DNA of 64,000 nucleotides from an uncultured Thermoleophilaceae bacterium (GCA_963764665.1 CAVXTL010000016.1:438-64437); one strand, 5' to 3'; shown: positions 5,951-59,650, counted from the stretch's first letter. A program made the numbers and translations. The notes: generated by a model from the sequence alone, not told the origin.

Positions 5951-5988
5951 CCATCGGTGCGCAGCCGGCCGAGCCGGCTGCTTCCGCA
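5951..5988 (+). repeat. REP-like hairpin repeat, copy A
   Basis: Sequence ccatcggtgcGCAGCCGGCcgaGCCGGCTGCttccgca. It forms a 9-bp stem (5961-5969 with 5973-5981) and a 3-nt loop. It is intergenic between the yceD stop and the rpmF start. Confidence 0.8.
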
Positions 5989-5999
5989 AGGCGGCGTTG

Positions 6000-6515
6000 C
6001 TAGTCGAGCTTCAACTCGCGGAGGGCGGCCCAGCGCGGATCGGGCTCGCTCTCGTGCGCGTGATCCGCGCCCGCAGTGTTCAGGTTCTCGCCGCAGATCG
6101 TGCAGAGGCCGAGGCAGTCCTCCGAGCACACGATCTGCGTGGGAAGGGCGAGCGCCAGGCCGTCGCGGACCCAGGCCGACACGTCGAGGTCCTCGCCCTC
6201 GACGTACGGAGAGCTCAGCTCCTCGCCGCCGCCCGGCTGGTCCACCTCTCGGAGGTCCACCGCCACGGCCTGCTCCGCGGGGTCGAGGCAGCGCATGCAC
6301 GGCCCCTCCAGCGCGGCTTCGAAGCGCACCCGCAGCGAGTAGCCGGTCGTGGTGTGGTCGACGTCGAGCCGCGCATCGACGAACCCGTCCCGGACCCCGT
6401 AGCGCTGACCGCCGAAATCGAAGCCCGCGACGGGCACCTCGAGGAGCAGCTGCCTGCCCTCGCCCGACCCGAGCATGAGCCGCCCGAGGTCGAGAATCTC
6501 GGTGCGCTGACCCAT
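6000..6515 (-). CDS. yceD: DUF177/YceD-family protein (large-subunit ribosomal protein L32 accumulation factor family)
   Basis: 171 aa and acidic. It has a C-terminal Cys cluster (CSEDCLGLCTICGENL) and sits in the classical position immediately upstream of rpmF. Confidence 0.85.
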   Translation of the reverse strand: MGQRTEILDLGRLMLGSGEGRQLLLEVPVAGFDFGGQRYGVRDGFVDARLDVDHTTTGYSLRVRFEAALEGPCMRCLDPAEQAVAVDLREVDQPGGGEELSSPYVEGEDLDVSAWVRDGLALALPTQIVCSEDCLGLCTICGENLNTAGADHAHESEPDPRWAALRELKLD

Positions 6516-6555
6516 GGCCCGAGCCTAGCGCCAGCCGCCTGTCTCGGCCCTGGAT

Positions 6556-6598
6556 GCGGTCGGGGCGCACCCGGCCGAGCCGGGTGCTTCCGCTACTG
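6556..6598 (+). repeat. REP-like hairpin repeat, copy B (compensated stem variant)
   Basis: Sequence gcggtcggggcGCACCCGGCcgaGCCGGGTGCttccgctactg. Relative to the other copies, the stem G:C pair has changed to C:G on both arms. The CTA in its tail is the TAG stop of the glyoxalase gene. Confidence 0.75.
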
Positions 6599-6976
6599 CT
6601 TGACCTCGATCAGCTCGATCCGGTAGCCGTCGGGATCGCGCACGAAGCAGATCATCGGCCCCTCGGTGCGGCCTCCCGGGCGGTACGGAGGCTTCTCAGG
6701 CTCGATGCCGTCGGTGCTCAGCGCGCCGAGGGTGTCCTCAAGGTCGTCGACCGCGATCGCGATGTGGTTGTAGCCGGTGCCGAGCTCGTAGGAGTCCACG
6801 CCGTGGTTGTAGGTCAACTCGAGGCGGGGATCCTCTCCCGGCAGGCCCATGAACACGTTGATCGCCTCGTCCCCGATGGGCATGCGGGCGGCTTCCTGGA
6901 AGCCGAGCTTCTCGTAGAAGGCGACCGAGCGATCGATGTCGCCGATCCGGTAGCACGTGTGAAGATAAGAGGGCAC
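6593..6976 (-). CDS. Glyoxalase I / VOC-family lactoylglutathione lyase-like protein
   Basis: 127 aa with a GTG start. It shows the VOC pattern HTCYRIGDIDRSVAFY...ELTYNHG...HIAIAVDD...FVRDPDGYRIELIE. Confidence 0.82.
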   Translation of the reverse strand: MPSYLHTCYRIGDIDRSVAFYEKLGFQEAARMPIGDEAINVFMGLPGEDPRLELTYNHGVDSYELGTGYNHIAIAVDDLEDTLGALSTDGIEPEKPPYRPGGRTEGPMICFVRDPDGYRIELIEVKQ

Positions 6977-7079
6977 GGGCGGAGGCTATCGCCCCCGAAA
7001 CTGCAAGAGCCGCGCCCCTCCCGTAGGAGAAGCGCGGCTCGGCAGTACGTCGTTCGCTCTCTTGGTGAGCTGGCCCTAC

Positions 7080-8129
7080 TCAACCTCGTTCCGCGGCCAC
7101 CCTCCGTAGACCGGCTCCGAGGCCCAGGAGTCCGACTGCGACGACCAGTAGCAGCGGAGCGTGGCTGCCGGTGAACGGCAGGCTCTCCGTGGTGGTCGCC
7201 TCTGCGGTCGCGGCAGGACCGGTCGGAACGGCTGAGCCGCCACCGCCCGGAACTTCCTCGCCCGCTTCGGACTCGGGGAGAACTTCGCCCTCTTCGCCTC
7301 CTGGCTGCGCGCCACCGTTAGGCGGAGTCTCGCCGCCGTTGGGGGGCGTCTCGCCGCCAGTGGGAGGCGTCTCACCGCCGGTCGGAGGCGTTTCGCCGCC
7401 GGTCGGAGGTGTTTCGCCGCCGGTCGGAGGCGTCTCGCCACCGGGCGGGGGTGTCTCCCCACCAGGCGGAGGCGTCTCGCCGCCGGGCGGGGGTGTCTCC
7501 CCACCAGGCGGAGGCGTCTCGCCGCCGGGCGGGGGTGTCTCCCCACCAGGCGGAGGCGTCTCGCCACCGGGCGGGGGTGTCTCCCCACCAGGCGGAGGCG
7601 TCTCGCCGCCAGGCGGGGGCTTTTCCCCACCGGGCGGAGGTGTCTCCCCACCGGGCGGTGTCTCCCCGCCCGGAGGTGTCTCGCCACCGGGCGGTGTCTC
7701 CCCGCCTGGTGGTGGCTGGTGCCCGCCACCCGGAGGCTTCTCGCCGCCAGGGGGCTGCTCTTCCTCGCAGGGTTGCTCCTCATCGGGTCCTTCCGACGGG
7801 GGCTTCCCTCCACCCGGGGTGTGTCCCTCGGGCGGTGGAGTCCCTTCCGGGCCGTGCCAGCCAGGGCTTCCGTGGTCGGACCCCGAACTTCCGTGGTCCT
7901 CCCCAGAGTCTCCGTGGTCGGATCCATAACTTCCGTGATCCCCACCGGAGTCGCCGTGATCAGACCATGACTTGCCATGGCCGGATCCGGAGTCGCCCTT
8001 GGACGAGTGGCCGCCGCCGGCGAATGCATCGCCGGCGTTCACCAAGAAGAGCCAGAGCGCGATGGCAAGCACGGAGAGGGCAAAAAGCCCCCGCCGTGTG
8101 CCAGCGGCACTCGGCTCGGAAAGGTGCAT
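7080..8129 (-). CDS. LPXTG-anchored Pro/Thr/Gly-rich repeat surface protein
   Basis: The ATG at 8129 is preceded by AAGGGAGAA. The signal peptide is MHLSEPSAAGTRRGLFALSVLAIALWLFLVNAGDAFA. About 20 GGETPP(P/T/N) units follow. The C-terminus has LPFTG, a hydrophobic helix and an RRVAAERG tail, which is a sortase sorting signal. The start could instead be 8153 or 8162. Confidence 0.8.
   Translation of the reverse strand: MHLSEPSAAGTRRGLFALSVLAIALWLFLVNAGDAFAGGGHSSKGDSGSGHGKSWSDHGDSGGDHGSYGSDHGDSGEDHGSSGSDHGSPGWHGPEGTPPPEGHTPGGGKPPSEGPDEEQPCEEEQPPGGEKPPGGGHQPPPGGETPPGGETPPGGETPPGGETPPPGGEKPPPGGETPPPGGETPPPGGETPPPGGETPPPGGETPPPGGETPPPGGETPPPGGETPPPGGETPPTGGETPPTGGETPPTGGETPPTGGETPPNGGETPPNGGAQPGGEEGEVLPESEAGEEVPGGGGSAVPTGPAATAEATTTESLPFTGSHAPLLLVVAVGLLGLGAGLRRVAAERG
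7317..7706 (-). repeat. Coding tandem repeat of 18/21-bp units with perfect 42-bp higher-order copies
   Basis: The unit ggaggcgtctcgccgccgggc/gggggtgtctccccaccaggc is repeated, with several copies identical at the nucleotide level between about 7424 and 7600. It encodes GGETPPP, GGETPPT, GGETPPN and GGETPP. Confidence 0.9.
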
Positions 8130-8451
8130 AGATTCTCCCTTCGCGGGTTTCATAGGCGGCAAAGACGGAACCGGCCGAACCCACCCGGCTAGCCCCGCGG
8201 AGGGGACGAGTGAAACAGCAACCTCGGATGTTTTCCCGCGGGAACCGGAACGAATGCTCCCAATTTGCGTCGAAAACGCTCTAACTGCGCGGACTTCGAG
8301 GCTGGTCTCAGTGCGTCCCCTGAGGGCCGCAGCATAAGCATCCGGAGGGCGCTCGCGCGCTGCCGGGCCGGCGAGCGGGAGGCTTTGAGGCGCCGAATCG
8401 CGGGGTTACATAACCGGTTACACCGGCAAAGCCGCTGCTAAGGGCCTGAAA

Positions 8452-8913
8452 CTAGGACACTTCGGCTTCTTCGCGGCCCTGCAGGCGATCGCGGCCCCGT
8501 TGCACGGCCGCGATGAACTTCGTGAGGTTGACCTCGAGGGTGTTCAGGATGTCGTCCGCGTAGTCCTCGGCGCCGAGCCTGATCTCGCGCTCGCGCGCGC
8601 GGGCGTCCTCGATGATCTCCTCGGCCTGCCGCTCGGCCTGCTTGACGATCTCCTCCTCGCCGATCAGGCGCACCTGCTCCTCGCGCGCCTCCCGGACGAT
8701 GCGCTCGGCCTCGCGCTTCGCCTCGGCGAGCATCTCCTGCCGCTCCTTCACGATCCAGCGCGCCTGCTTGATCTCCTCGGGGATCGTGGCGCGCATCTGG
8801 TCGAGGATGTCGTAGACCTCCTCCTTGTCCACGCGCACCGTGTCGGTGAGCGGGACGACCTTGGCGTTGTGGATCGTGTCGTCGAGCTTGTCGATCAGGA
8901 CCAGGACGTCCAT
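8452..8913 (-). CDS. Conserved charged coiled-coil protein of unknown function
   Basis: 153 aa and Glu/Arg/Lys-rich (EAKREAERIVREAREEQ...), with high GC3. It contains no enzymatic motif and lies downstream of coaD on the same strand. Confidence 0.6.
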   Translation of the reverse strand: MDVLVLIDKLDDTIHNAKVVPLTDTVRVDKEEVYDILDQMRATIPEEIKQARWIVKERQEMLAEAKREAERIVREAREEQVRLIGEEEIVKQAERQAEEIIEDARAREREIRLGAEDYADDILNTLEVNLTKFIAAVQRGRDRLQGREEAEVS

Positions 8914-8995
8914 GACCTTCCTAACTCCACGAGGCCGTGGGCCCCGCGCTCCGGTTGATCGGCTTTGACGTCACGTTCTCAGGTCCCCCAGTTCG

Positions 8996-9496
8996 TCAGC
9001 GCTTTAGCTCTTCCTGCAACCGTGCCGCCACCGCATCGGGCACGAGCCCGCTGATGTCGCCACCGAACATGGCCAGTTCCTTGATCCCGCTGGAGGACAG
9101 GAAGCTGAACTGTGGCGCGGCCATCAGGTAGATGCTCTCGATGTCGGGCGCCATCTTCCGGTTGAGCTGGTTCATCTCGAACTCGTACTCGAAGTCCGAG
9201 ATCGCCCGCAACCCCTTGACGATGGCCTTGGCACCGTTCACACGGGCGAAATCGACGAGGAGCGTATCAAAGGGTTTTACCTGCACATTGGACAAATCCG
9301 CGGTGGCATCGCCGATGAAGCCGACGCGCTCCTCCGCGGAGAACAGGGTCTTGCTCTTTCGGACCGGCTGGTTGACCACTCCGACGATCACGTGATCGAA
9401 CACCGAGGCGGCGCGTCCGATGATGTCGAGGTGGCCCATCGTGACCGGGTCGTAGGACCCCGGAAGGACCGCGGTGCCGCCGTAGCGCTCAGCCAT
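8996..9496 (-). CDS. coaD: Phosphopantetheine adenylyltransferase
   Basis: 166 aa. It has the nucleotidyltransferase motif GSYDPVTMGH and CoaD-length architecture. It overlaps the rsmD stop. Confidence 0.93.
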   Translation of the reverse strand: MAERYGGTAVLPGSYDPVTMGHLDIIGRAASVFDHVIVGVVNQPVRKSKTLFSAEERVGFIGDATADLSNVQVKPFDTLLVDFARVNGAKAIVKGLRAISDFEYEFEMNQLNRKMAPDIESIYLMAAPQFSFLSSSGIKELAMFGGDISGLVPDAVAARLQEELKR

Positions 9497-10010
9497 GGAT
9501 GGCTATCCGGGTATCGCCATAGGTCCGCTCGCGGAGGAGCGGAAGCGAGATATCGAGCGGCGTGCGCTTGCTTGATTCGGTCACGATCAGGGCGTCCTCG
9601 GTGAGCACCGCCGGGAGGGCCGCGGACAGCGGCTCGCTCAGGCGGGACGCGGAATCATACGGGGGGTCGACGAATACAAGGTCGAAGGAGTCCTCGCAGG
9701 CCCCCAGGAACCGCAGCACATCCTGCCGGCGGACCTCGGCGCCGGGCACCCCGATCGCGTCGAGGTTGCGCCTGATCGCGGCGGCCGCGGCGTGGTCGGT
9801 CTCGACGAACACGGCCGAGGCGGCGCCCCGCGACAGCGCCTCGATGCCGAGCGCGCCGGAGCCCGCGAACAGGTCGAGCACGCGCGCGCCGCGGACGTCG
9901 CCCAGGATCGCGAACAGCGCCTCCCGCACCCGATCCGACGTCGGTCGCGTGCCGCGTCCGCGCGGGGCATGAAGCCGGCGCCCGCCGTACTCGCCGGCCA
10001 CCACCCTCAT
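9489..10010 (-). CDS. rsmD: 16S rRNA (guanine966-N2)-methyltransferase RsmD
   Basis: 173 aa. Motifs are RPTSDRVREALF, VLDLFAGSGALGIEALSRGA and FVDPPY. It follows the rsmD-coaD order seen in Firmicutes. Confidence 0.9.
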   Translation of the reverse strand: MRVVAGEYGGRRLHAPRGRGTRPTSDRVREALFAILGDVRGARVLDLFAGSGALGIEALSRGAASAVFVETDHAAAAAIRRNLDAIGVPGAEVRRQDVLRFLGACEDSFDLVFVDPPYDSASRLSEPLSAALPAVLTEDALIVTESSKRTPLDISLPLLRERTYGDTRIAIHG

Positions 10011-12211
10011 GCGGGGATCGGGTCGAGCTCCGAGCCGAAGCGCGCGCCCACGGCGTCGCGGAGCAGCGCGTGCTCGGGCTCGCTCAGATCGGGGTCCGCG
10101 CGGAGCAGCTCGTCGGCGCGGTCGCGAGCGCGGGCGAGCAGCTCCGTGTCCTCGGGGAGCCGAGCCACGCGCAGCTCGGGCAGGCCGTGCTGGCGGGTGC
10201 CGAGCACGTCGCCCGCGCCGCGGATCTCGAGGTCGACCTCGGCGAGCCGAAAGCCGTCGTCCTCGTTTGCGATGGCGTCGAGCCGCGGGAGCTTCGCGTC
10301 GCCGAACAGGATGCAGAGCGAGCTATGGCCCCCTCGTCCCACCCGGCCGCGCAGCTGGTGAAGCTGGGAGAGCCCGTAGCGCTCCGCCGCCTCGATCAGC
10401 ATCACGGTCGCGTTCGGCACGTCGATGCCCACCTCGACCACGCTGGTGGCCACGAGCACGTCCGCCTCACCGCCGGCGAAGGCCTCCATCGCGGCCTGCT
10501 TGGCCTTCGACGGGAGCTGGCCGTGGATCAGCTCCACGCGCTGCTCGCGGAACTCCGTCGAGCGCAGGCGCTCGAACTCCGCCGTGGCTGCCTTGGCCTG
10601 GAGCGTCTCGGACTCCTCGACGAGCGGGCAGACCACGAAGCACTGGCGGCCCTGCGCGATCTCCTCGCGAATGCGCTCGTAAGCGCGCTTGCGCGCCCGG
10701 GCGCCGTCGACCACGAAGGTCTCCACCGGGCGGCGGCCCGCCGGCAGCTCGCGCAGAGCGGTCGCGTCCAGGTCGCCGTAGGCGGTCAGCGAGAGCGTGC
10801 GGGGGATCGGCGTGGCGGTCATGTGCAGCGCGTGCGGGACCAGCCCCTCCGGGGCTTTGGCGTCGAGCGCCGCGCGCTGGCGCACTCCGAAGCGGTGCTG
10901 CTCGTCTACGACCACCACGGCGAGATCCCTGAACTCGACCGGGTCCTCGATCAGCGCGTGCGTGCCCACGACCAGCTGCAGCGCGCCCGACCCCAGCGCG
11001 CCGATCAGGTCGCGCCGCCGGGCGGCCGGGGTCGAGCCCGTGAGCAGCTCGACCGGGATGTTCCCGCCGAGCAGCCTGTCTAGCGTGCGGTGGTGCTGCT
11101 CGGCCAGCGTCTCCGTGGGCGCCATCAGCGCCGCCTGGGCGCCGTTCTCGACCGCGCGGAGCATCGCGTGCAGCGCCACCACGGTCTTGCCGGCGCCCAC
11201 CTCGCCCATCAGGAGCCGCTGCATCGGCCGCTCCTCGCCGATGTCGGCGTCCAGCTCCTCCATCGCGCGCTTCTGATCGCCGGTGAGCTCGAAGGGGAGC
11301 GACCAGCGCCAGCGGTCCACCACCACTCCGCGTGCCGCCAGCGGGCGCGCGCGGCGACCCTCGCGGCGCGAGCGCCGGCGCCCGGCCACCGCCAGCTGCA
11401 GCAGGAGCAGCTCCTCGAACGCCAGGCGGTGGCGCGCGCCGCTCTCGTCGTCCTCGCTGTCCGGGAAGTGGGCGCCGACCAGCGCGGCGGCGCGCTCGGC
11501 CAGCGCCTCCTCGACGCGCAGGCCGGCGGGTAGCGGCTCAGGCGTGTGCAGGAAGCGCCCGCGCGCGTCCCACAGGAGCTCTCGCAGGCGGGCGGCACTG
11601 AGGCCCTCGGTGGCGGGATGGACCGGCACGAGGCCCACGGTGTGGACCGGGGCGTCCGCTCCGCCGAGCGGCTCGTGCTCAGACACCCAGAACTCACCAC
11701 GGCGACGGAGCCTGCCGTGGAGCAGCACCTGCGACCCCTCGCCGAGCTGACGGGCGATCCAGGGCTGGTTGAACCAGACCGCCATCAACGGGCCGCTCTC
11801 GTCCGCCGTCCGCGCCTCCACTCGCTTGCGCCGCCGGTCGCGCATCGGCCGGATGCTCACCGAGCGCACCACCACCGCCACCGTGGCCTCCTCTCCCAGG
11901 GCGAGGTCCGCCACGCGACGGACCTCGCGACGGTCCCGGTGCGAGTGCGGGAGGTGCTCGACGAGGTCGCCGTAGGTCTCGATTCCGAGGCTCACGAGCG
12001 CCTTTCCCGCGGCGCCCGGCAGTGTCACGCTCTCCTCCAGGGGCTCGGCCCGCGGATACGAGCGAATCGGGGCGGAGCGGATCTGATCGGCGGTGAGCTC
12101 CGCCGTCGATGCGAAGCCGGTTACTCCGCGCAGAGCAGCCACCACCAGGCGGGTTGCCCGCCCTCGTGGTACTCGACCTCCACCCCGTCCGGCACGTGCG
12201 CCTCGATCCAC
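10007..12211 (-). CDS. recG: ATP-dependent DNA helicase RecG
   Basis: It has a wedge/OB N-terminal domain, helicase motif I (GEVGAGKT), DEQH, and the TATPIPRT and QLHQLRGRVGRG motifs. The true start is uncertain: in-frame GTG codons at 12145 and 12142 would reduce the overlap with the upstream gene. Confidence 0.9.
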   Translation of the reverse strand: MDRGARAGRGGGRVPRGRATRLVVAALRGVTGFASTAELTADQIRSAPIRSYPRAEPLEESVTLPGAAGKALVSLGIETYGDLVEHLPHSHRDRREVRRVADLALGEEATVAVVVRSVSIRPMRDRRRKRVEARTADESGPLMAVWFNQPWIARQLGEGSQVLLHGRLRRRGEFWVSEHEPLGGADAPVHTVGLVPVHPATEGLSAARLRELLWDARGRFLHTPEPLPAGLRVEEALAERAAALVGAHFPDSEDDESGARHRLAFEELLLLQLAVAGRRRSRREGRRARPLAARGVVVDRWRWSLPFELTGDQKRAMEELDADIGEERPMQRLLMGEVGAGKTVVALHAMLRAVENGAQAALMAPTETLAEQHHRTLDRLLGGNIPVELLTGSTPAARRRDLIGALGSGALQLVVGTHALIEDPVEFRDLAVVVVDEQHRFGVRQRAALDAKAPEGLVPHALHMTATPIPRTLSLTAYGDLDATALRELPAGRRPVETFVVDGARARKRAYERIREEIAQGRQCFVVCPLVEESETLQAKAATAEFERLRSTEFREQRVELIHGQLPSKAKQAAMEAFAGGEADVLVATSVVEVGIDVPNATVMLIEAAERYGLSQLHQLRGRVGRGGHSSLCILFGDAKLPRLDAIANEDDGFRLAEVDLEIRGAGDVLGTRQHGLPELRVARLPEDTELLARARDRADELLRADPDLSEPEHALLRDAVGARFGSELDPIPA

Positions 12212-13776: not shown

Positions 13777-13811
13777 CGCCGGGCGGCGGTGTTACCGCCT
13801 CAGACGGCGCG

Positions 13812-14003
13812 TCAGAGGGCTTTTGTGACCTTCGAGGCCTTTAGGCAACGCGTGCACACGTACTCGCGTCGGGGCGTCCCGTTCACCGAGATCCGCACCT
13901 TCTGGAGGTTCGGGTTGAAGCGCCGCTTGGTGGCCACCATCGAGTGGCTGCGGCTGTGGCCGAACGCGGGACCCTTCCCGCACGAGTAGCAGACCTTGGA
14001 CAC
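13812..14003 (-). CDS. rpmB: 50S ribosomal protein L28
   Basis: The GTG at 14003 gives VSKVCYSCGKGPAFGHSRSHSMVATKRRFNPNLQKV... (63 aa), typical of bL28. Confidence 0.9.
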   Translation of the reverse strand: MSKVCYSCGKGPAFGHSRSHSMVATKRRFNPNLQKVRISVNGTPRREYVCTRCLKASKVTKAL

Positions 14004-14113
14004 GGCGGCTGAGGCTATCAGCAGCCTGGTTTCGAAAGATGTACGGACGGGTACACGATGGATATTCCAGCGCCGGTGTGGCGCTGGTCGGGCCATATGG
14101 GGGGAAAGATCGG

Positions 14114-16162: not shown

Positions 16163-16190
16163 GGGCGTCTTAGCCGTACCGTTTCCGGCG

Positions 16191-16595: not shown

Positions 16596-16615
16596 CCGCG
16601 GGCTATGGTCAGCTC

Positions 16616-17587
16616 ATGCGCAGACTGACGATCGCCGGACTGGCCCTGACCGCCCTTCTCCTCACGGCCGTGCCGGCCCACGCGGCCAACCGCTGGATCC
16701 AGAAGAAGGCGCCGCTCAACATCGCGCATCAGGGCGGCGAGGACGAGTTCCCGTCGAACACGATCTACGCGTTCCGCAAGGCGCTGCGTGTGGGCTCCGA
16801 CATGCTCGAGCTGGACGTCGGCGTGACCAAGGACAACAAGGTGATCGTCATGCACGACACCACGGTCGACGGCAAGACCAACGGCACCGGCAACGTCTCC
16901 TCGCTGACGCTCAGGCAGATCAAGCGACTGGACGCCGCCTACTGGTTCGCGCCCAAGGCCGAGTCGCACTACAGCCACAGCCTTCCCGCGTCCGCCTACC
17001 GCTTCCGCGGCATCGCGACCGGGAACAAGCGGCCGCCGCGGGGCTTCAGGGCCAAGGACTTCCGCGTCCCGACGCTGCGCCAGGTCATGCGAGCGTTCCC
17101 GCACACGCCGATCAACATCGAGATCAAGGGGCGCACGCCCGCCGAGGCGGAGTCCGAGTACATCTACAACGCCGAGGTACTCGCCAAGTTCCTGAAGAAC
17201 ACCAAGCGCCGCGACCTGATCGTGGTGTCGTTCCTGCAGCCGGCCGTGGACCGCTTCCACGAGCTCTTGCCGCGGATCGACGTGGCCCCGGGAATCGCCG
17301 GCGCGGCCGTGTGGATCTTCGGGAGCGGATCGCCGGGTCCGGGAGTGGCCGCCTTCCAGGTGCCGATCACGTTCGGTCCCACGGCGATCACGACCGCGGA
17401 GCGCGTGGCACGCGCCCACAGCGAGGGCTACGCCTGGCAGAACTGGTTCTCGGGCGACGACAGCGACTCGGCCGACAGCTGGCGGGCGCTGATCGACATG
17501 TGCGTGGACGGGACCATGACCGCCCACCCGCGTGCGTACGAGCGCGTGCTGCGCTCGCACCCGCGGCCTGCAAGCTGCAAGCTTTAG
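16616..17587 (+). CDS. Glycerophosphodiester phosphodiesterase, secreted
   Basis: It has a signal peptide and GDPD motifs: NIAHQGGEDEFPSNT, DMLELDV and VMHDTTVDGKTNG. Confidence 0.85.
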   Translation: MRRLTIAGLALTALLLTAVPAHAANRWIQKKAPLNIAHQGGEDEFPSNTIYAFRKALRVGSDMLELDVGVTKDNKVIVMHDTTVDGKTNGTGNVSSLTLRQIKRLDAAYWFAPKAESHYSHSLPASAYRFRGIATGNKRPPRGFRAKDFRVPTLRQVMRAFPHTPINIEIKGRTPAEAESEYIYNAEVLAKFLKNTKRRDLIVVSFLQPAVDRFHELLPRIDVAPGIAGAAVWIFGSGSPGPGVAAFQVPITFGPTAITTAERVARAHSEGYAWQNWFSGDDSDSADSWRALIDMCVDGTMTAHPRAYERVLRSHPRPASCKL

Positions 17588-17592
17588 GAGAA

Positions 17593-17630
17593 CATCGGTG
17601 CGCAGCCGGCCGAGCCGGCTGCTTCCGCTA
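17593..17630 (+). repeat. REP-like hairpin repeat, copy C
   Basis: Sequence catcggtgcGCAGCCGGCcgaGCCGGCTGCttccgcta. It lies between two convergent genes. The terminal CTA is the TAG stop of the SRPBCC gene. Confidence 0.8.
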
Positions 17631-47616: not shown

Positions 47617-47628
47617 GCCCTTGCTTTG

Positions 47629-50145: not shown

Positions 50146-50183
50146 CTCAGCTCTCCCACAACCGTAACCGCTCGGCAGCCGGC

Positions 50184-51086
50184 TCAGCCGACAATGGCCG
50201 CGCCATGCCCGCGGAGATAGTCGCCGGCGCTCATGGGGCGGCCCCCCGCCGGCTGCACCTCGATCAGCTCGAGCGCACCGGACGAGGTGCCCAGCAGCAG
50301 CCGGTCGTCCCTCGCCGCCAGCCTGCCCTCCTCGATGTCTGCGCCGTCTGCGGCCAGACCCACCCGCCGTATCCCGAGGCGCTCGTCGGGCCCCAACGGC
50401 AGGAAGGCGCCGATGTGCGGCGTGAGGGCGCGCACGCGGCGCTCCAGCTCCTGCGCTGACCGCGCGGGGTCGAGCTGCCGGTCGGCGGGGCCGATCTTCT
50501 CGGCGTAGCTCACCCCTTGGTCGGACTGCTCGCGCCACGTCGGCGGAGCGTCGAGCGCTTCCACGAGCAGCTCCCCCGCGAGCACTGCCAGCCGGGCGGC
50601 GAGCTCGCCGTAGTCGTCGTCGGAGCGGATCGGCTCACCGCGCTGGAGGCCGATCGGGCCCGCGTCGAGCTCGGCGGCGAGCCTCATGATGGTCACGCCG
50701 GTCTCCTCGTCGCCCGCCTCGATCGCCCGCTCCACGGGAGCCGCGCCCCGCCAGCGCGGCAGCAGCGACGGATGGACGTTCACGAACTCGTGATCCGAGA
50801 GCAGCGGATCCTTGATCAGCGCCCCGTACGCACAGATGGGAAGCGCCTCGGGCTCGAGCGCGGCGATCCGCTCACGCGACTCCTCGGCGTTCACGTCGTC
50901 CGGCTGGAAGGTCTCGATGCCGAGCCGGGCCGCGGCCTCGGCCACCGGCGGCGCCGTCAGCTTGCGTCCCCTCCCCCGCGGGCGATCCGGGCGTGTGATC
51001 ACCAGCTGGGGGCGGTGCGGGCTGAGCGCCAGACGGCCCAGCACCTCCGCCGCGAACTCCGAGGTTCCGAGGAAGACGGTGCGCAT
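50184..51086 (-). CDS. fmt: Methionyl-tRNA formyltransferase
   Basis: The ATG at 51086 gives MRTVFLGTSEFAAEVLGRL. The formyltransferase motifs are NVHPSLLPRWRGAAP and ETGVTIM. Confidence 0.92.
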   Translation of the reverse strand: MRTVFLGTSEFAAEVLGRLALSPHRPQLVITRPDRPRGRGRKLTAPPVAEAAARLGIETFQPDDVNAEESRERIAALEPEALPICAYGALIKDPLLSDHEFVNVHPSLLPRWRGAAPVERAIEAGDEETGVTIMRLAAELDAGPIGLQRGEPIRSDDDYGELAARLAVLAGELLVEALDAPPTWREQSDQGVSYAEKIGPADRQLDPARSAQELERRVRALTPHIGAFLPLGPDERLGIRRVGLAADGADIEEGRLAARDDRLLLGTSSGALELIEVQPAGGRPMSAGDYLRGHGAAIVG

Positions 51087-51228
51087 CCGGCGCCAGCCTA
51101 GAGGCAGGGGCCCAGGGCAGTGGGCTTGCGTTCCGGCAGCGATCACCGTTCGAGCTCGCAAGCTCACTCGTCCGGTAACCGCCGCCGTCACCGCCCCTGC
51201 CCCACACGGCCGGCAGACGCTGTTCTTG

Positions 51229-51242
51229 TTTGCTTAAGCAAA
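51229..51242. promoter_or_regulatory. AT-rich perfect 14-bp palindrome between the divergent fmt and lctP-glc genes (candidate operator)
   Basis: TTTGCTTAAGCAAA is the perfect palindrome. With a 3-nt bulge it extends to cTTGTTTGCTTAAGCAAAaaaCAA. This is the most AT-rich spot in the region. Confidence 0.35.
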
Positions 51243-51457
51243 AAACAAACCGCCCGTACCACCGGGCCAGCGCGTGCCGGGCGGGGGCGGCGACGGCTGT
51301 CGATTACCGAACGAGCAAGCGAAGCGCGCGAGAGCGGTGATTGACGCCGGAGCGCAAGCCCACCGCCCTGGACGCCGGAGCGCGAGCCCTCCGCCCCGGT
51401 CGGTTTCCCCGGCGCCCGATCGGGGCAAACCATCGGCGAGCAACGAGGGAGGAACAG

Positions 51458-54654: not shown

Positions 54655-55799
54655 TGGCCACCCAGGCCGCACGCCTGGCCACGCCCGGATCGCGCGACGA
54701 GCTGGCGGCCGAGCTGAGCGCCGCCGCCGCGGCGGGCGAGACCGTGTGCGTGCGCGGCGCGGGCACCAAGCTCGCCTGGGCGGGCCTGTCCGGGTTCGAG
54801 CCCGGGCTCGAGCTCTCGACCACGGGGCTAGACACGCTCGTGGAGCACAACGCCGGCGACCTCACGGCGATAATCGAGGCCGGCGTGCCGCTGGCGCGCG
54901 CCCAGAGCGCCTTCGCCGAGGAGGGGCAGATGCTCGCGCTCGACCCGCCCGGCGGCGGGGCCACAATCGGCGGGATCGTGGCCAGCGGCGACTCCGGCCC
55001 GCTGCGCTCGCGCTACGGCGGCGTGCGCGACCTCGTGGTGGGAATGCACGTGGCGCTCTCCGACGGCACGCGCGCCAAGACCGGCGGCAAGGTGATCAAG
55101 AACGTGGCGGGCTACGACCTGGCCAAGCTCTTCGCCGGCTCGTTCGGCACGCTCGGCGCGATCATCGAGGTGGCCGTGCGCCTGCACCCGCTTCCGCCGT
55201 CCACGGCCACGGCGATCGGGCGCACCGGGGACGCCGCGATGCTGGCCGAGGCGGCGGCCGTGCTCACCCACGCGTCGATCGAGCACAGCGGGCTCGACGT
55301 GCGCTGGGAGGACGGCGCCGGCTCCGTGCTCGCCCGCTTCGGCGGCGCCGCACCGGGGCCCCAGGCGGAGAACGCGGCCAGGCTGCTTCGCGAAGCCGGG
55401 CTCGACACCGACCTGACCGAGGAGGACGACGGGCTCTGGTCCGCACAGCGCGACGACCAGCGAGCGCGACAGGGCTCGTCCGACACGGTGGTGCGCGTGG
55501 CCGCGCTGCAGACGGACCTGCCGGAGCTGCTCGAGGCCGCGACCCGCCACTCGGCGCTGCTGGTGGGCCGCGCCCCGCTCGCCCTCTCCTGGCTGAGGCT
55601 GGAGGATTCCGAGGCCGTACCGGACGCGCTCGATGACCTCCGCCGGATCGCGGGCGCCGTGGTGCTCGACGCTCCCGCCGAGGTGCGCGAGCGGGTGGAG
55701 CCCTGGGGCGAGCGCGACGCGGCGGTGCTCGCGCTGATGAAAAGGGTCAAGGACGGCTTCGACCCCGCCGGCGCCTGCGCACCGGGGGTGCTCTGGTGA
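54654..55799 (+). CDS. glcE: Glycolate oxidase FAD-binding subunit GlcE
   Basis: It has an FAD_binding_4 pattern (VRGAGTKLAWAG...GGKVIKNVAGYDLAKL). The start overlaps the glcD stop. Confidence 0.85.
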   Translation: MATQAARLATPGSRDELAAELSAAAAAGETVCVRGAGTKLAWAGLSGFEPGLELSTTGLDTLVEHNAGDLTAIIEAGVPLARAQSAFAEEGQMLALDPPGGGATIGGIVASGDSGPLRSRYGGVRDLVVGMHVALSDGTRAKTGGKVIKNVAGYDLAKLFAGSFGTLGAIIEVAVRLHPLPPSTATAIGRTGDAAMLAEAAAVLTHASIEHSGLDVRWEDGAGSVLARFGGAAPGPQAENAARLLREAGLDTDLTEEDDGLWSAQRDDQRARQGSSDTVVRVAALQTDLPELLEAATRHSALLVGRAPLALSWLRLEDSEAVPDALDDLRRIAGAVVLDAPAEVRERVEPWGERDAAVLALMKRVKDGFDPAGACAPGVLW

Positions 55800-57064
55800 G
55801 CGCCTTCGACCAGACCCGGCCGCCGTCGCTCGACCTGATCGACGACTGCGTGCACTGCGGCTTCTGCCTGCCCACCTGCCCCACGTACCGGCTCTGGGGC
55901 GAGGAGATGGACTCTCCGCGCGGTCGCATCGTGCTGATGAAGCAGGGCCACGAGGAGATCTCCGCCCCGCTCGTGGAGCACATCGACAACTGCCTCGGGT
56001 GCATGGCGTGCGTGACCGCCTGCCCGTCGGGCGTGCAGTACGACAAGCTGATCGAGGACACGCGCGCCCAGGTGGAGCGGAACGCGAAGCGCTCTCCCCG
56101 CGAGCGCGCCTACCGCCGGCTCGTGTTCGCGCTCTTCACCCATCCCGGGCGGCTGCGGGTGGCGGCCCCCATGATCGCGCTGGCGCAGCGCCTCGGCCTC
56201 ACCAAGCTGGCCACCCGCCCGGCCGCACAGCGGCTCGCGCCGAAGCTCTCCACGCTGCTGGCGCTCTCACCCGACGCCTCGGCGCGGCGTGCGCTCACGC
56301 GGCTGCCGGAACGCTTCGAGGCGCGCGGCGAGCGGCGCGGCAGCGTGGCCCTGCTCCAGGGCTGCGTGCAGCGGGTGTTCTTCGCCCACGTGAACGAGGC
56401 CACGGCGCGCGTGCTCGCTGCCGAGGGCTTCGAGGTGCACGTGCCCCGGGCGCCGCGCTGCTGCGGCGCCCTGCAGCTGCACGCCGGCGACGGCCGGGCG
56501 CGCGGCCTCGCGAAGGCGACGATCGAGGCGCTCGAGGGGCACGACACGATCGTGGTCAACTCGGCGGGCTGCGGCTCGGCCATGAAGGACTACGGGCACG
56601 TGCTGCGCGACGACCCGGAATGGGCCGACCGTGCCGAGCGCTTCGCCGCCAAGGTCCGCGACGTGACCGAGCTGCTCGCGGAGCACGAGCCGCGCGCGCC
56701 GCGCGGCCCCCTCCCGATGCGGCTGGCCTACCACGACGCATGCCACCTGGCCCACGCACAGGGTGTGCGCGCGCAGCCCCGCCAGCTGCTCCGCGGCATC
56801 CCGGAGCTCGAGCTCGTGGAGCCCGGCGACTGGGAGATCTGCTGCGGCTCGGCGGGCGTGTACAACCTGCTCAAGCCCGAGCCCGCCGCGGAGCTCGGCC
56901 GCCTCAAGGCCGAGAGCGTGCTCGCCACCGACGCCGACGCCGTGGCCGCCGCCAACCCCGGCTGCGCGCTCCAGATCACGTCGCACACGGGCCGCCTCGG
57001 CCGGTCCCTGCCGGTGTTCCACCCGCTCGAGCTGCTGGCCCGCTCGATCGAGGCGGCCGAGTAG
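55796..57064 (+). CDS. glcF: Glycolate oxidase iron-sulfur subunit GlcF
   Basis: It has two 4Fe-4S motifs (CVHCGFCLPTCP and CLGCMACVTACP) and two CCG domains. The GTG start overlaps the glcE stop. Confidence 0.9.
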   Translation: MSAFDQTRPPSLDLIDDCVHCGFCLPTCPTYRLWGEEMDSPRGRIVLMKQGHEEISAPLVEHIDNCLGCMACVTACPSGVQYDKLIEDTRAQVERNAKRSPRERAYRRLVFALFTHPGRLRVAAPMIALAQRLGLTKLATRPAAQRLAPKLSTLLALSPDASARRALTRLPERFEARGERRGSVALLQGCVQRVFFAHVNEATARVLAAEGFEVHVPRAPRCCGALQLHAGDGRARGLAKATIEALEGHDTIVVNSAGCGSAMKDYGHVLRDDPEWADRAERFAAKVRDVTELLAEHEPRAPRGPLPMRLAYHDACHLAHAQGVRAQPRQLLRGIPELELVEPGDWEICCGSAGVYNLLKPEPAAELGRLKAESVLATDADAVAAANPGCALQITSHTGRLGRSLPVFHPLELLARSIEAAE

Positions 57065-57093
57065 CCGTGGGCGCTTCCGGGAAGGCTCGAGAC

Positions 57094-58680
57094 ATGATCG
57101 GAGCCACGGGAATCGACATCGCCGGACCGCCCCAGGAGCGTCAGGAGGAGGTGCTCACCGAGGGCGCGCTCTCGCTGCTGGCACGCCTCCACGGCGAGCT
57201 CGACGGCCGGCGCCGCGAGCTGCTCGAACGGCGTGTGGAGCGTCAGGCCGAGCTCGACGCGGGCGCAACGCTCGAGTTCGTGGCGGCGCCCGAGGACTTC
57301 ACGGTCGCGCCGGTGCCCGACGCGCTCCAGGACCGGCGCGTGGAGATCACCGGGCCCACCAGCCGCAAGATGGTCATCAACGCGCTCAACTCCGGAGCGC
57401 GCGGGTTCATGGCGGACTTCGAGGACGCCAACTCGCCCACCTGGAGCAACATGATCGAGGGTCAGGCCAACCTGGCCGACGCCGTGCGCGGAGAGATCGA
57501 GCACGAGGAGGGCGGCAAGCGTTACGACCTCGCGGACGATCCCGCCGTGCTGCTGGTGCGCCCGCGCGGCCTGCACCTGCCGGAGCGCCACCTCAGCGTC
57601 GACGAACAGCCGGTGGCCGGCTCATTCGCGGACTTCGCGCTGTTCGTGCACCGCAACGCGCACGAGCTGCTCGAGCGCGGCGCCGGGCCCTACCTCTACC
57701 TGCCGAAGCTCGAGTCGCATCTCGAGGCGCGGCTCTGGCGCGACGCCTTCCGCATCGCCGAGGAGGACCTCGATCTCGACCGCGGCACGATCAAGGCCAC
57801 CGTCCTCATCGAGACGATCCCGGCGGCCTTCGAGATGGACGCGATCCTCTATGAGCTGCGCGACCACGCCGCCGGGCTCAACGCCGGCCGCTGGGACTAC
57901 ATCTTCTCGGCCATCAAGCGCTTCCGAACGCGACCGGACTTCGTGCTCCCGGACCGGTCGCAGGTCACGATGACCGTGCCGTTCATGCGCGCCTACACCG
58001 AGCTGCTCGTGAAGACCTGCCATGCCCGCGGCGCCCACGCCATGGGCGGCATGTCGGCGGTGATTCCCAGCCGCAAGGACGAGGAGGCCAACAAGCGCGC
58101 CTTCGAGGCCGTGCGCACCGACAAGGAGCGCGAGGCCGGCGACGGCTTCGACGGCACGTGGGTGGCCCATCCCGACTCGGTGCCGGTGGCCACCGAGGCG
58201 TTCGACAACGTGCTCGGCGACCGCCCGAACCAGGTGGACCGCCGCCGCGACGAGGTCGATGTCGAGCCGAGCCGGCTGCTGGCCATGCCCGAGACCCCGG
58301 GCGAGGTCACCGAGGAGGGCCTGCGGTCGAACGTGAACGTGGGCATCCAGTACATCTCGTCGTGGCTGCGCGGCAACGGCGCGGCCGCGATCTACGGGTT
58401 GATGGAGGACGCCGCCACCGCGGAGATCGCGCGTGCGCAGGTGTGGCAGTGGATCCGCCACGACGTGGCGCTGAGCGACGGCCGCCGGATCACGCCCGAG
58501 CTGGTGCGCGAGCTGGAGACCGAGGAGCTCGAGAAGATCCGTGCCGAGATCGGCGACGACGACTGGTTCTACTCCGAAGGCCGTCCCGACCTGTCGCGCG
58601 AGCTGTTCGAGCTCGTGGCGCTGGGCGACGAGTTCGTCGAGTTCCTCACGCTGCCGGCCTACGAGCGGCTCGAGGACTAG
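57094..58680 (+). CDS. aceB: Malate synthase A
   Basis: 528 aa. It contains RRVEITGPTSRKMVINALNSGARGFMADFEDANSPTW, YLYLPKLESHLEARLW and DGTWVAHP. Confidence 0.92.
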   Translation: MIGATGIDIAGPPQERQEEVLTEGALSLLARLHGELDGRRRELLERRVERQAELDAGATLEFVAAPEDFTVAPVPDALQDRRVEITGPTSRKMVINALNSGARGFMADFEDANSPTWSNMIEGQANLADAVRGEIEHEEGGKRYDLADDPAVLLVRPRGLHLPERHLSVDEQPVAGSFADFALFVHRNAHELLERGAGPYLYLPKLESHLEARLWRDAFRIAEEDLDLDRGTIKATVLIETIPAAFEMDAILYELRDHAAGLNAGRWDYIFSAIKRFRTRPDFVLPDRSQVTMTVPFMRAYTELLVKTCHARGAHAMGGMSAVIPSRKDEEANKRAFEAVRTDKEREAGDGFDGTWVAHPDSVPVATEAFDNVLGDRPNQVDRRRDEVDVEPSRLLAMPETPGEVTEEGLRSNVNVGIQYISSWLRGNGAAAIYGLMEDAATAEIARAQVWQWIRHDVALSDGRRITPELVRELETEELEKIRAEIGDDDWFYSEGRPDLSRELFELVALGDEFVEFLTLPAYERLED

Positions 58681-58917
58681 GCCCCGCCGAGGGCCAAAGA
58701 GCCAAAGATCGTCCTTCCCGGGCGCATCGCGGCCGGCGATAGCGGGTACAGCCCAAGTGCAATGAATGCACGACTGACAGCCTCACAACGCATGGGTCTC
58801 GCACAGCACAGCGCTCGCGTAGCACGCGCCCGCGACCGTCCGCGGCTACGAGCGGTTCAGGTGGGCGCGCGCCATCGACCGGTACTCATCCGCACGCTCC
58901 GGTCTGCCCAGACGGCT

Positions 58918-58959
58918 TAGTGCGGAAGCAGCCGGCTCGGACCGGCTGCGCACCGATGG
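58918..58959 (-). repeat. REP-like hairpin repeat, copy D (inverted orientation)
   Basis: Its reverse complement reads ccatcggtgcGCAGCCGGtccgaGCCGGCTGCttccgcacta. It lies 8 nt downstream of the def stop, in the convergent spacer with aceB. Confidence 0.75.
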
Positions 58960-58966
58960 ACTTAGC

Positions 58967-59569
58967 TCAGGCCGCTTCGGCGTTGCGCTCCGCCTCGCGG
59001 AGCTCGCGCAGCGCCGTCTTGCGGCTCTCGCGTGAGGTGCGGTCCAGGATCAGCACGCCGTTCAGGTGGTCGATCTCGTGCTGGATCACACGCGCCTCGA
59101 GGCCTGAGGCCTCGACGATGCGCTCCTCCCCCGCCTCGTCCTGCGCCCGCACCCGCACATGGACCGCGCGGTCCACGTCGAGGGTCACGCCCGGGATCGA
59201 CAGGCACCCCTCGTCGAAGATCTCGGTGTCCTTGCTCTCCCACTCGATCTCGGGGTTGGCGAGCACGATCACCGGGGCGTCGGCGCCGACCGTGTACACC
59301 AGCAGCCGTTGCGAGATCCCGAGCTGTGGCGCCGCCAGGCCCATTCCGTAGGCGTCGCGCATGATGCCCACCATGCGCTCGACCTGGGCGCGCAGCGAGT
59401 CGTCGAAGCGGTCCACCGGCGTGGCCCGCGACTTGAGCACCGGGTCGCCGAGGCGGCGGATGAACGACATGGCGGCCGCTCGCCGAGCGGCCACCTCAGG
59501 GTCGAGGCGAGCCTCCTCCTGCTCGTCCTCGACGTCGTCGACCTCTGGCTGAACGACCTCCTCGGGCAC
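58967..59569 (-). CDS. def: Peptide deformylase
   Basis: The motifs are GLAAPQLG, EGCLSIPG and QHEIDHLNG. The long form starts at the GTG at 59569 with an acidic extension. The alternative ATG at 59470 (MSFIRRLGDPVL) gives a canonical length. Confidence 0.9.
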   Translation of the reverse strand: MPEEVVQPEVDDVEDEQEEARLDPEVAARRAAAMSFIRRLGDPVLKSRATPVDRFDDSLRAQVERMVGIMRDAYGMGLAAPQLGISQRLLVYTVGADAPVIVLANPEIEWESKDTEIFDEGCLSIPGVTLDVDRAVHVRVRAQDEAGEERIVEASGLEARVIQHEIDHLNGVLILDRTSRESRKTALRELREAERNAEAA

Positions 59570-59606
59570 GGCGTCGAGTTTATCGCCGCGCGCCAGCCCC
59601 GCTACT

Positions 59607-59650
59607 CCATCGGTGCGCGGCCGGCCGAGCCGGCTGCTTCCGCACTACTG
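59607..59650 (+). repeat. REP-like hairpin repeat, copy E
   Basis: Sequence ccatcggtgcGCGGCCGGCcgaGCCGGCTGCttccgcactactg. The stem has one G-U pair. The CTA at 59645-59647 is the priA TAG stop. Confidence 0.8.

What the first reader, a model, noticed from the sequence alone, without database searches (positions are those of the whole stretch)
5951..59650. REP-like intergenic hairpin family (at least five copies) with a compensatory stem mutation and donated stop codons
The consensus is CCATCGGTGC-GCAGCCGGC-cga-GCCGGCTGC-TTCCGC(A)CTA. Copies occur at 5951-5988, 6556-6598, 17593-17630, 58918-58959 (inverted) and 59607-59650. A possible degenerate copy lies at about 61835-61869.

Each copy folds into a GC-rich 8-9-bp stem with a short (3-6-nt) loop. 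Copy B carries G-to-C on the left arm and the matching C-to-G on the right arm. Copy E has an A-to-G change that gives a G-U pair. Structure, not just sequence, is therefore conserved.

Three copies sit inside minus-strand operons: gloA-yceD, yceD-rpmF and priA-def. Two sit between convergent genes. In copies B, C and E, the CTA in the element tail is the actual TAG stop codon of the adjacent minus-strand gene (glyoxalase, SRPBCC and priA). The family could act as mRNA stabilisers, processing sites or terminators, as a protein-binding site, or as a miniature mobile element.
Basis: seen in the sequence. Interest (0 to 1): 0.6.

Follow-up and report, generated by a model that had tools for sequence, protein, structure and literature searches.

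The report
RAYT-less REP-like hairpin repeat family
The five hairpins belong to a roughly 42-base palindromic repeat found about 72 times in this soil actinobacterial genome and in three related genera; it has spread by inserting next to gene ends and has no recognisable transposase partner, making it a new family of an already known kind of small bacterial repeat.

Summary
All five copies are real, scoring 59-72 bits with a covariance model against 16 bits for the next best hit in the window. The suggested sixth copy at 61835 is at noise level.

The host is an uncultured Thermoleophilaceae MAG (2.95 Mb, 71% GC). It carries about 72 copies of a roughly 42-nt unit: a 9-bp GC stem, a CGA loop, a TGC/TT internal loop and a 3-bp outer stem. 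Both stems show compensatory changes: 97.5% of cells are paired against 89.7% in shuffles.

The family occurs in 3 of 29 sampled genera of the family, at 0-61 copies per genome.

It behaves as inserted DNA:
- About 12 of 14 assessable G000 copies are absent from orthologous sites in the nearest species.
- Two copies are exact 42-nt in-frame insertions inside genes.
- Some spacers are occupied independently, in opposite orientations or as tandem arrays.
- Resolved sites show 2-5-nt duplications.

No RAYT (Y1 transposase) or other transposase class tracks the family.

The stop codons of the genes next to copies B, C and E are ancestral, not donated by the element.

Verdict: a new family of REP-like elements whose mobiliser is unknown. 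The scan had not noted this repeat on other DNA.

The parts
5952..5988 (+). Copy A (core CATCGG...TTCCGCA). It lies between the yceD stop (6000) and the rpmF start (5933), 11 nt from the yceD stop.
   Evidence: 67.2 bits. The orthologous spacer is empty in G059, G009 and G054, and is filled by other variants in G019, G070, G024, G063 and G060. The true rpmF start is the MAVPK methionine.
6558..6594 (+). Copy B, a compensatory stem variant (CACCC/GGGTG). It lies between the glyoxalase stop (6593-6595, overlapping the core by 2 nt) and the yceD start (6515).
   Evidence: 61.5 bits. Sister species lack the copy but keep the CTACTGC stop context.
17593..17629 (+). Copy C. It fills the convergent spacer between the GDPD stop (17585-17587) and the SRPBCC stop (17628-17630).
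   Evidence: 71.8 bits. The same spacer is empty in G059 and G054, holds three tandem minus-orientation copies in G018 and holds one minus-orientation copy in G009.
58921..58958 (-). Copy D, with a 1-nt insertion in the left arm next to the loop. It lies 8 nt from the def stop (58967-59569 gene) at the end of a 286-nt convergent spacer, and is flanked by CTTAG direct repeats.
   Evidence: 59.4 bits.
59608..59644 (+). Copy E, with a G.T pair in the stem. It abuts the priA stop (59645-59647), lies 38 nt from the def start (59569) and is flanked by CTACT direct repeats.
   Evidence: 61.4 bits. The empty sites in G059, G018, G009 and others read ...CTACTGAGGA with a single CTACT. G049 has two tandem copies at the same CTACTG.
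61834..61874 (-). It is not a supported member of the family.
   Evidence: Covariance model score 12.4 bits, E 0.7, within the background distribution.

Best explanation
The copies belong to a family of small, non-autonomous, REP-like palindromic DNA elements. The inserted unit is about 40-44 nt. It is inherited within a few genera of uncultured Thermoleophilaceae and multiplies inside genomes by inserting new copies.

Surviving copies sit mostly within a few bases of stop codons. They lie in convergent spacers, between genes of an operon and occasionally in frame inside genes. These are the places where an insertion does least harm in a genome that is 90% coding.

The two-helix hairpin is what is kept: a 9-bp stem, a CGA loop, a TGC/TT internal loop and a 3-bp outer stem. 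Most likely it is the structure recognised, as single-stranded or cruciform DNA, by whatever enzyme copies or inserts the element.

That enzyme is not a RAYT (Y1 transposase) and was not identified.

Shown: family membership, covariation, lineage-specific insertion, independent occupancy of the same spacers, and the lack of any RAYT association. Inferred: recognition of the hairpin by a trans-acting factor, and any secondary effect on mRNA 3' ends or on translation termination.
For: Copy number and distribution:
- 72 copies in G000 with a bimodal score distribution.
- The family is present in 3 of 29 genera of the family at 0-61 copies per genome. The reversed-pattern controls give zero matches.

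Homogeneity:
- 20 of 63 cores are identical over 34 nt. Mean identity to the master sequence is about 94%. Third codon positions are 74% identical between G000 and its nearest sampled species.

Structure:
- 97.5% of cells are paired against 89.7% in shuffles (0 of 500 reach it). Six pairs change on both sides. Slid-register controls give 32-47% paired.

Insertion:
- Orthologous sites of copies A, B, E, C3:6869, C3:7106, C3:11703, C3:14181, C23:23963/24007, C11:62898 and C26:218111 are empty in the nearest species.
- There are exact 42-nt in-frame insertions in a Ppx/GppA gene (69 nt against 27-28 nt in 29 species) and in a GST-like gene (87 against 45 nt).
- The same spacer is filled in opposite orientations or as tandem arrays in different species.
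- At an ABC ATPase/permease junction the empty state is an overlapping RTGA. The filled state is RTGA-nnn-core-A-ATGA.

Position:
- 42 of 70 copies lie within 15 nt of a stop codon, against about 6% for random placement in spacers.
- There is no orientation preference relative to transcription: 13 copies in the same direction, 18 opposite.
Against: - No mobilising enzyme was found. All genomes are MAGs (G000 is 83% complete), and MAGs under-assemble repeated genes.
- There is no consistent target-site duplication. Flanking repeats of 5 nt or more are enriched (5 against 1.2 expected), but most copies show none and no fixed register exists.
- At the ABC junction, copies in six species share position, orientation and stem variant, and the core is far better conserved than the neighbouring coding DNA. 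One species shows an in-situ compensatory change. This points to host-level constraint or gene conversion, not only to spread.
- No within-population filled/empty polymorphism was seen (this scan is uninformative).
Confidence: 0.65

Rival explanations
1. The hairpins exist mainly because the host uses them as RNA elements at gene ends. They could act as orientation-independent 3'-end protectors or attenuators, or as structures close to stop codons that slow terminating ribosomes. The last role has been reported for E. coli REPs within about 15 nt of stop codons (Liang, Rudd and Deutscher 2015; cited from my own knowledge, not retrievable in the library). On this reading, spread is secondary.
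For: - 42 of 70 copies lie within 15 nt of a stop, and 32 within 5 nt.
- Copies are enriched in convergent spacers: 19 of 60 against 17% of all spacers.
- The hairpin is stable at -22 to -23.5 kcal/mol on either strand.
- The core is conserved, with an in-situ compensatory change, at the ABC junction across six species while the 2-3-nt spacer next to it varies.
- Among non-canonical cells, A.C outnumbers G.T by 10 to 1. Wobble pairing would therefore be tolerated on the bottom strand.
Against: - Positions turn over rapidly between the nearest species.
- There are in-frame intragenic insertions.
- The asymmetric parts (TGC/TT loop, CGA loop, head and tail) are conserved although orientation relative to transcription is random, 13 against 18.
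- There is no U-tract, and the terminator scan flags no copy.
- Many related species have zero copies.
Confidence: 0.15
2. It is an ordinary REP/REPIN family driven by a RAYT that was missed because the assemblies are incomplete.
For: - The overall look is that of a REP: a short GC-rich imperfect palindrome, tens of copies, at gene ends.
- G000 is only 83% complete and G018 74%.
Against: - The Y1 domain is absent from G000 and G018, from G191 (61 copies), from G189 (27 copies, 97% complete) and from the single-contig G016.
- It is found in 3 of 38 element-positive genomes against 14 of 113 element-negative ones.
- None of the 21 Y1 loci examined has a flanking copy.
- There is no GTAG tag and there are no inverted REPIN doublets. 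Close pairs are direct tandems.
Confidence: 0.05
3. It is a very short MITE mobilised in trans by a DDE or other IS transposase. On this reading the palindrome arms are the terminal inverted repeats and the short flanking repeats are target-site duplications.
For: - Duplications of 2-5 nt are seen at all three sites where both states can be aligned: CTACT at E, AA at Ppx and (R)TGA at the ABC junction.
- Flanking repeats of 5 nt or more are enriched, 5 against 1.2 expected, reached in 1 of 500 shuffles.
Against: - The duplication length is not fixed, and most copies have none.
- TnpB and DDE_Tnp_1 are absent. IS110 and rve occur in a zero-copy genome but not in the high-copy G191 and G189.
- The ends of the single rve IS in G000 are unrelated to the element, and no copy lies next to any IS.
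Confidence: 0.1
4. It is a dispersed DNA binding site for a host protein (nucleoid, gyrase or IHF-like), kept by selection at the DNA level.
For: - The sequence, including the asymmetric positions, is conserved across three genera regardless of orientation.
Against: - Compensatory changes show that pairing within one strand matters, which double-stranded binding does not require.
- Copy number ranges from 0 to 61 among close species.
- Positions turn over quickly.
Confidence: 0.05

Closest known systems
REP / REPIN elements with their RAYT transposases (Enterobacteria, Pseudomonas; PMC3116915, PMC2817692)
   Same: It is a short GC-rich imperfect palindrome present in tens of copies. It lies at gene 3' ends and between convergent genes. 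Inheritance is vertical within a clade, with a conserved master sequence. The hairpin is maintained by compensatory change.
   Different: No RAYT gene is associated with it, there is no GTAG tag and there are no inverted REPIN doublets. Close pairs are head-to-tail tandems with a 41-46-nt period. Some insertions carry short duplications.
CGTC-tagged REPs (Di Nocera, De Gregorio and Rocco 2013, PMC3733652)
   Same: There is no dedicated transposase. The stem is 9 bp. One end reads C(A/G)TC. Copies sit downstream of ORFs, and a few sit inside genes.
   Different: The stem begins with G.C pairs, not the near-invariant A.T pairs. The loop is 3 nt, not 4-5. The tail is TTCCGC, not CCA. The 'tag' is partly paired (CGG/CCG outer stem). 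Head-to-head dimers do not predominate. The host phylum, Actinomycetota, is not among the five phyla reported.
Rickettsia palindromic elements (RPE; mentioned in PMC3733652 and PMC10969869)
   Same: The element is palindromic and can sit in frame inside protein-coding genes, adding a short peptide. Here it adds 14 residues to a Ppx/GppA protein and to a GST-like protein.
   Different: RPEs are about 100-150 bp and are often intragenic. Here only 2 of about 72 copies are intragenic, and the unit is 42 nt.
Mycobacterial MIRU-type intercistronic repeats (own knowledge)
   Same: It is an actinobacterial repeat lodged between genes of an operon in register with the flanking stop and start codons. 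The ABC junction shows this: TGA-nnn-core-ATG.
   Different: MIRUs are 40-100-bp direct tandem units that carry small ORFs. They are not GC hairpins and do not show compensatory stems.

Membership tests
REP/REPIN-RAYT system | Short (20-40 nt) imperfect palindrome, mostly extragenic, in many copies | tested here: met
   72 copies in 2.95 Mb with a 37-nt core. About 60 of 70 copies are outside called genes.
REP/REPIN-RAYT system | A cognate RAYT (Y1 HUH transposase) gene, typically bracketed by REPs | tested here: not met
   PF01797 is absent from G000 and from most carriers. It is found in 3 of 38 element-positive genomes against 14 of 113 negative ones. None of the 21 Y1 loci examined has a flanking copy. 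Caveat: all genomes are MAGs. One of the negative genomes with a Y1 gene is the unpublished G140.
REP/REPIN-RAYT system | Conserved GTAG tetranucleotide at one end | tested here: not met
   The head is C(A/G)TCGG and the tail is TTCCGC(A/T)A.
REP/REPIN-RAYT system | REPIN doublets: two inverted REPs separated by a short spacer | tested here: not met
   No inverted pair lies closer than 200 nt. Pairs 7-12 nt apart are all direct tandems.
CGTC-tagged REPs (PMC3733652) | Unpaired terminal CGTC motif (variants TGTC, CCTC) | tested here: inconclusive
   Positions 1-4 read CATC in 39 of 63 copies and CGTC in 22 of 63. The following CGG pairs with CCG in the outer stem.
CGTC-tagged REPs (PMC3733652) | 8-9-bp stem with A.T pairs in the first and second positions; loop of 4-5 nt; CCA tail | tested here: not met
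   The stem is GCAGCCGGC/GCCGGCTGC (invariant G.C and C.G at the base), the loop is CGA (106 of 128) and the tail is TTCCGC.
CGTC-tagged REPs (PMC3733652) | No dedicated transposase | tested here: met
MITE of an IS transposase | Target-site duplication of fixed length at every copy | tested here: not met
   Duplications of 2-5 nt at three resolved sites. No fixed register. Most copies have none.
MITE of an IS transposase | A full-length parent IS with the same termini in the genome or in relatives | tested here: not met
   TnpB and DDE_Tnp_1 are absent. IS110 and rve loci have no related ends or adjacent copies. MAG incompleteness limits this test.
Intrinsic (Rho-independent) terminator | GC-rich hairpin followed by a U-tract, oriented with transcription | tested here: not met
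   The hairpin is present at -22 to -23.5 kcal/mol. Only UU follows it, the scan flags no copy, and orientation is 13 same against 18 opposite.
Any Rfam RNA family | Match at the gathering threshold | tested here: not met
   0 matches in the whole window.

The most novel reading that the evidence does not exclude
The family is copied by a mechanism or enzyme not yet recognised for REP-like elements. One possibility is a host-encoded, vertically inherited nuclease or recombinase that reads the two-helix hairpin. On this reading it inserts the 40-44-nt unit with short, variable duplications at A-rich sites such as stop codons and overlapping ATGA stop/start junctions, regenerating both codons. 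This would be a RAYT-independent counterpart of the REPIN-RAYT partnership in an uncultured actinobacterial lineage.
Probability: 0.3. Interest if true: 0.6.

Novelty: new member of a known kind. Interest (0 to 1): 0.38.

Why it matters
Small palindromic repeats are well studied in Proteobacteria but hardly at all in Actinomycetota, and not at all in Thermoleophilia. A full-text search for 'Thermoleophilia' together with 'repetitive extragenic palindromic' found no paper.

This family gives a clean, well-bounded example of a REP-like element that spreads without a RAYT. It therefore adds to the open question raised for CGTC REPs: what mobilises such elements?

It also has practical value:
- The repeat marks gene ends.
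- It creates 14-residue insertions in proteins.
- It can shift stop codons.
- It can confuse gene callers in these high-GC MAGs, where several ORFs read into the element.
- It helped to expose a mislabelled contig in a public MAG.

Tried and rejected
1. RAYT/Y1 partner. Searched in G000, in 40 relatives and in 150 genomes of the family, and 21 Y1 loci were inspected. No association.

2. Other transposases (TnpB, IS110, DDE_Tnp_1, rve) in four high-copy genomes and one zero-copy genome. None tracks copy number, and the IS ends are unrelated.

3. REPtron-like arrangement. Genes bracketed by copy pairs are housekeeping genes such as def, IlvB/IlvN, an ABC ATPase, MarR and CsrA.

4. Recurrent neighbour families in about 100 loci from about 40 MAGs. 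The only recurrent one is an ABC ATPase/permease operon, which is a shared or hot insertion site and not an enzyme partner.

5. Fixed 2-nt (TA/AA) or 5-nt target duplication. No register shows an excess.

6. Orientation bias relative to replication, the signature of single-strand transposition. G000 shows 29:13 (p 0.03), but this is not replicated in G018 (p 0.7).

7. The element supplying the rpmF start codon. Rejected: the conserved MAVPK start lies 7 codons downstream.

8. Horizontal presence in Alphaproteobacteria. Rejected: that contig is 80-85% identical to G000 DNA.

9. Empty allele of the Ppx site in metagenome contigs. No match, which is uninformative.

11. Integron attC and CRISPR repeats. 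Considered and set aside from the anatomy alone: there are no cassette arrays, no GTTRRRY boxes and no regular spacing with unique spacers.


Full report
**Observation**

The 21-nt stem-loop pattern with up to three mismatches matches six times in the window, against 0.12 expected from shuffles. No Rfam family matches anywhere in the window.

A covariance model built from 128 distinct copies scores the five window copies at 59-72 bits. The next best hit scores 16 bits. The stem changes described for copies B (compensatory) and E (a G.T pair) are correct.

**Host and census**

The window is part of contig C16 of a 2.95-Mb assembly of 27 contigs with 71.2% GC, estimated 83% complete. Exact-pattern hits in the species collection come from MAGs titled Thermoleophilaceae or Solirubrobacterales. 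The single exception is titled Alphaproteobacteria, but it is 80-85% identical over several kilobases to G000 contig C26, so it is mislabelled or mis-binned.

BLAST, nhmmer and the covariance model agree on 70-72 copies in G000, with a clean gap between members and noise.

Across 150 genomes of the family, the pattern (up to 2 mismatches) occurs in 3 of 29 genera: g1 23/32, g14 12/33 and g32 2/3. Copy number ranges from 0 to 61 per genome, and the reversed-pattern controls give zero everywhere. It was not found in 16 genomes from other families of the order.

**Anatomy**

Information content is flat outside positions -5 to +40 around the core. The unit reads:

(G/T)(G/A)A-nnn-CATCGG-TGC-GCAGCCGGC-CGA-GCCGGCTGC-TT-CCGC-(A/T)A

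On the 128-sequence alignment I tested a two-helix structure: a 9-bp inner stem and a 3-bp outer CGG/CCG stem across a TGC/TT internal loop.
- 97.5% of cells are paired, against 89.7% in shuffles (0 of 500 reach the observed value).
- Six pairs change on both sides, in 89 cells.
- Sliding the 3' partner by 1-3 columns drops pairing to 32-47%.
- Recurrent variants are CAGCC/GGCTG, CACCC/GGGTG, CGGCC/GGCCG, CCGCC/GGCGG, CATCC/GGATG and CACGC/GCGTG for the inner stem, and CGG/CCG, CGC/GCG, CCG/CGG and CCC/GGG for the outer stem.
- The loop is CGA in 106 copies and CAA in 15 of the 128. Among non-canonical cells, A.C (10) far outnumbers G.T (1), which would be wobble on the bottom strand. This is a weak clue because such copies may share descent.
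- The hairpin folds at -22 to -23.5 kcal/mol as RNA on either strand. No U-tract follows it, and the terminator scan flags none of the three copies (A-C) in the stretch scanned.

**Position**

I used a codon-usage gene caller written for this genome (2,880 genes, 90.6% coding). It places 19 copies in convergent spacers and 31 between co-directional genes. Of those 31, 13 point with the genes and 18 against. A further 10 fall in divergent spacers and 10 inside called ORFs. Convergent spacers make up only 17% of all spacers.

42 of 70 copies lie within 15 nt of a stop codon and 32 within 5 nt, against about 6% for random placement in spacers long enough to hold a copy.

Most of the 'inside' calls are copies at the very end of an ORF that reads into the element, or are start-codon mis-calls.

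L32 starts at the conserved MAVPK methionine, 7 codons downstream of the ATG inside copy A.

**Evidence that copies are insertions**

The nearest sampled species (G059, G018, G009) are 76-86% identical to G000 in the flanking genes. At orthologous sites:
- Copies A, B and E are absent from them.
- So are C3:7106, C3:11703, C3:14181, C23:23963/24007 and C11:62898.
- Copy C26:218111 is an exact 42-nt in-frame insertion in a Ppx/GppA gene. G000 has 69 nt between anchors where 29 other species have 27-28: GTGGAA|CCCCATCGG...TTCCTCAAA|GGCGGG.
- Copy C3:6869 is a second 42-nt in-frame insertion, in a GST-like gene (87 against 45 nt). Both are read on the bottom strand in the same frame (AEAAGSAGCAPM / AEAPGLAGCAAM).

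The same spacers are used repeatedly:
- The yceD-rpmF spacer carries different variants in G019 and in the G070/G024/G063/G060 group, and is empty in G052 and G002.
- The priA stop carries two tandem copies in the distant G049.
- The GDPD/SRPBCC spacer holds one plus-orientation copy in G000, three tandem minus-orientation copies in G018 and one minus-orientation copy in G009. It is empty in G059 and G054.
- C23:23431 has a counterpart in G059 in the opposite orientation.

Copies within G000 are far more uniform than neutral DNA between species. 20 of 63 cores are identical and mean identity to the master is about 94%, whereas third codon positions are 74% identical.

**Stop codons**

For copies B, C (right side) and E, species with empty sites keep the same CTA stop in the same context (CTACTGC, CTAGGC, CTACTGAGG). 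Those stops are therefore ancestral, and the element lies against them.

Donation does occur elsewhere. In G018 the GDPD gene is two codons shorter and ends in the terminal TAG of the first tandem copy. In five G000 cases an ORF runs through the element to a stop a few codons later.

At an ABC ATPase/permease junction the empty state is an overlapping stop/start (ATGA or GTGA in G059, G018 and G009). The filled state, seen in five other MAGs and in G000, is RTGA-nnn-core-A-ATGA. This keeps the upstream stop and recreates the downstream start.

In those MAGs the copy has the same position, the same orientation and, in four of the five, the same stem variant. One (L023) carries an in-situ compensatory change. 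The 2-3-nt spacer next to the core varies, while the core is much better conserved than the adjacent coding DNA. This is the best hint of host-level constraint or gene conversion.

**Junctions**

At the three sites where both states align to the nucleotide, a short piece of the target is present on both sides:
- CTACT, or at least CTA, at copy E.
- AA at the Ppx site.
- (R)TGA at the ABC junction.

Copies D and C26:204019 are also flanked by 5-nt direct repeats.

Flanking repeats of 5 nt or more are enriched: 5 against 1.2 expected, reached in 1 of 500 shuffles. Shorter repeats are not distinguishable from chance, no fixed register exists and most copies show nothing. I therefore do not claim a classical fixed-length target duplication.

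**Search for a mobiliser**

- The Y1 (RAYT) domain is absent from G000 and G018, from G191 (61 copies), from G189 (27 copies, 97% complete) and from the single-contig G016.
- Over the 151-genome sample it is found in 3 of 38 element-positive genomes and 14 of 113 element-negative ones. One of the latter is the unpublished G140, and only that count rests on it.
- None of the 21 Y1 loci examined has a flanking copy.
- TnpB and DDE_Tnp_1 were not found. IS110 and rve occur in the zero-copy G050 but not in G191 or G189. The ends of the one rve IS in G000 are unrelated to the element.
- Genes bracketed by copy pairs are ordinary housekeeping genes.
- An orientation bias relative to GC skew in G000 (29:13, p 0.03) was not reproduced in G018.

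All of these negatives carry the caveat that MAGs are incomplete and tend to lose repeated genes.

**Comparison with known families**

The element works like a REP. It fails three defining features of the REP-RAYT class: no RAYT, no GTAG tag and no REPIN doublets.

It resembles the CGTC REPs of Di Nocera et al. in lacking a transposase and in a C(A/G)TC end. It fails their stem, loop and tail definitions, and it lies in a phylum they did not report.

It shares in-frame intragenic insertion with Rickettsia palindromic elements. It shares operon-junction placement with mycobacterial MIRUs (own knowledge).

A literature search for Thermoleophilia together with 'repetitive extragenic palindromic' found nothing. 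The scan's earlier notes mention the copy at 58918-58959 only in passing, and show no sighting of this repeat on other DNA.

**Verdict**

This is a real, genome-wide family and a new member of the known kind 'small REP-like palindromic repeats'. It most likely spreads as a non-autonomous element whose hairpin is the recognised structure and whose mobiliser is unknown.

The finding is solid but moderately ordinary. Its main open question is what copies a REP-like element when there is no RAYT.

Noticed in passing
L028 (contig CAVXYS010000046.1), 2116-7998: The contig is titled 'uncultured Alphaproteobacteria' MAG. It is 80-85% identical over more than 5 kb to G000 contig C26 and has 71% GC, so it is mis-binned or mislabelled Thermoleophilaceae DNA. 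It carries three tandem copies of the repeat (6102-6228) in a spacer where G000 has none.
   Followed up: yes
window 5300-5589 (C16:5737-6026) and G000 contig C10:1-290: The first 290 bases of contig C10 are 100% identical (reverse strand) to this stretch of C16. This is either a contig-end overlap or an assembly duplication.
   Followed up: no
window 58967-59569 (-): The def ORF has an acidic N-terminal extension of about 36 residues before the Pep_deformylase domain (the Pfam match starts at residue 37). The true start codon may lie further downstream.
   Followed up: no
G000 C3:14218-14260 (locus L173, about 8719-8760): In G000, 36 extra nucleotides lie between the repeat and the conserved ATGAGG start of the ABC-2 permease seen in other species. 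The ATG directly after the element may therefore not be the real start.
   Followed up: partly
L282/L285 (G018:C4 about 50970-51091): Three tandem copies with a 45-nt period separate the GDPD and SRPBCC genes. The GDPD gene is two codons shorter than in G059 and ends in the element's own TAG.
   Followed up: partly
G000 C23:21567-21615 (-) and C18:48500-48548 (+): The covariance model found two further, more diverged copies (45 and 42 bits) that BLAST had missed.
   Followed up: no
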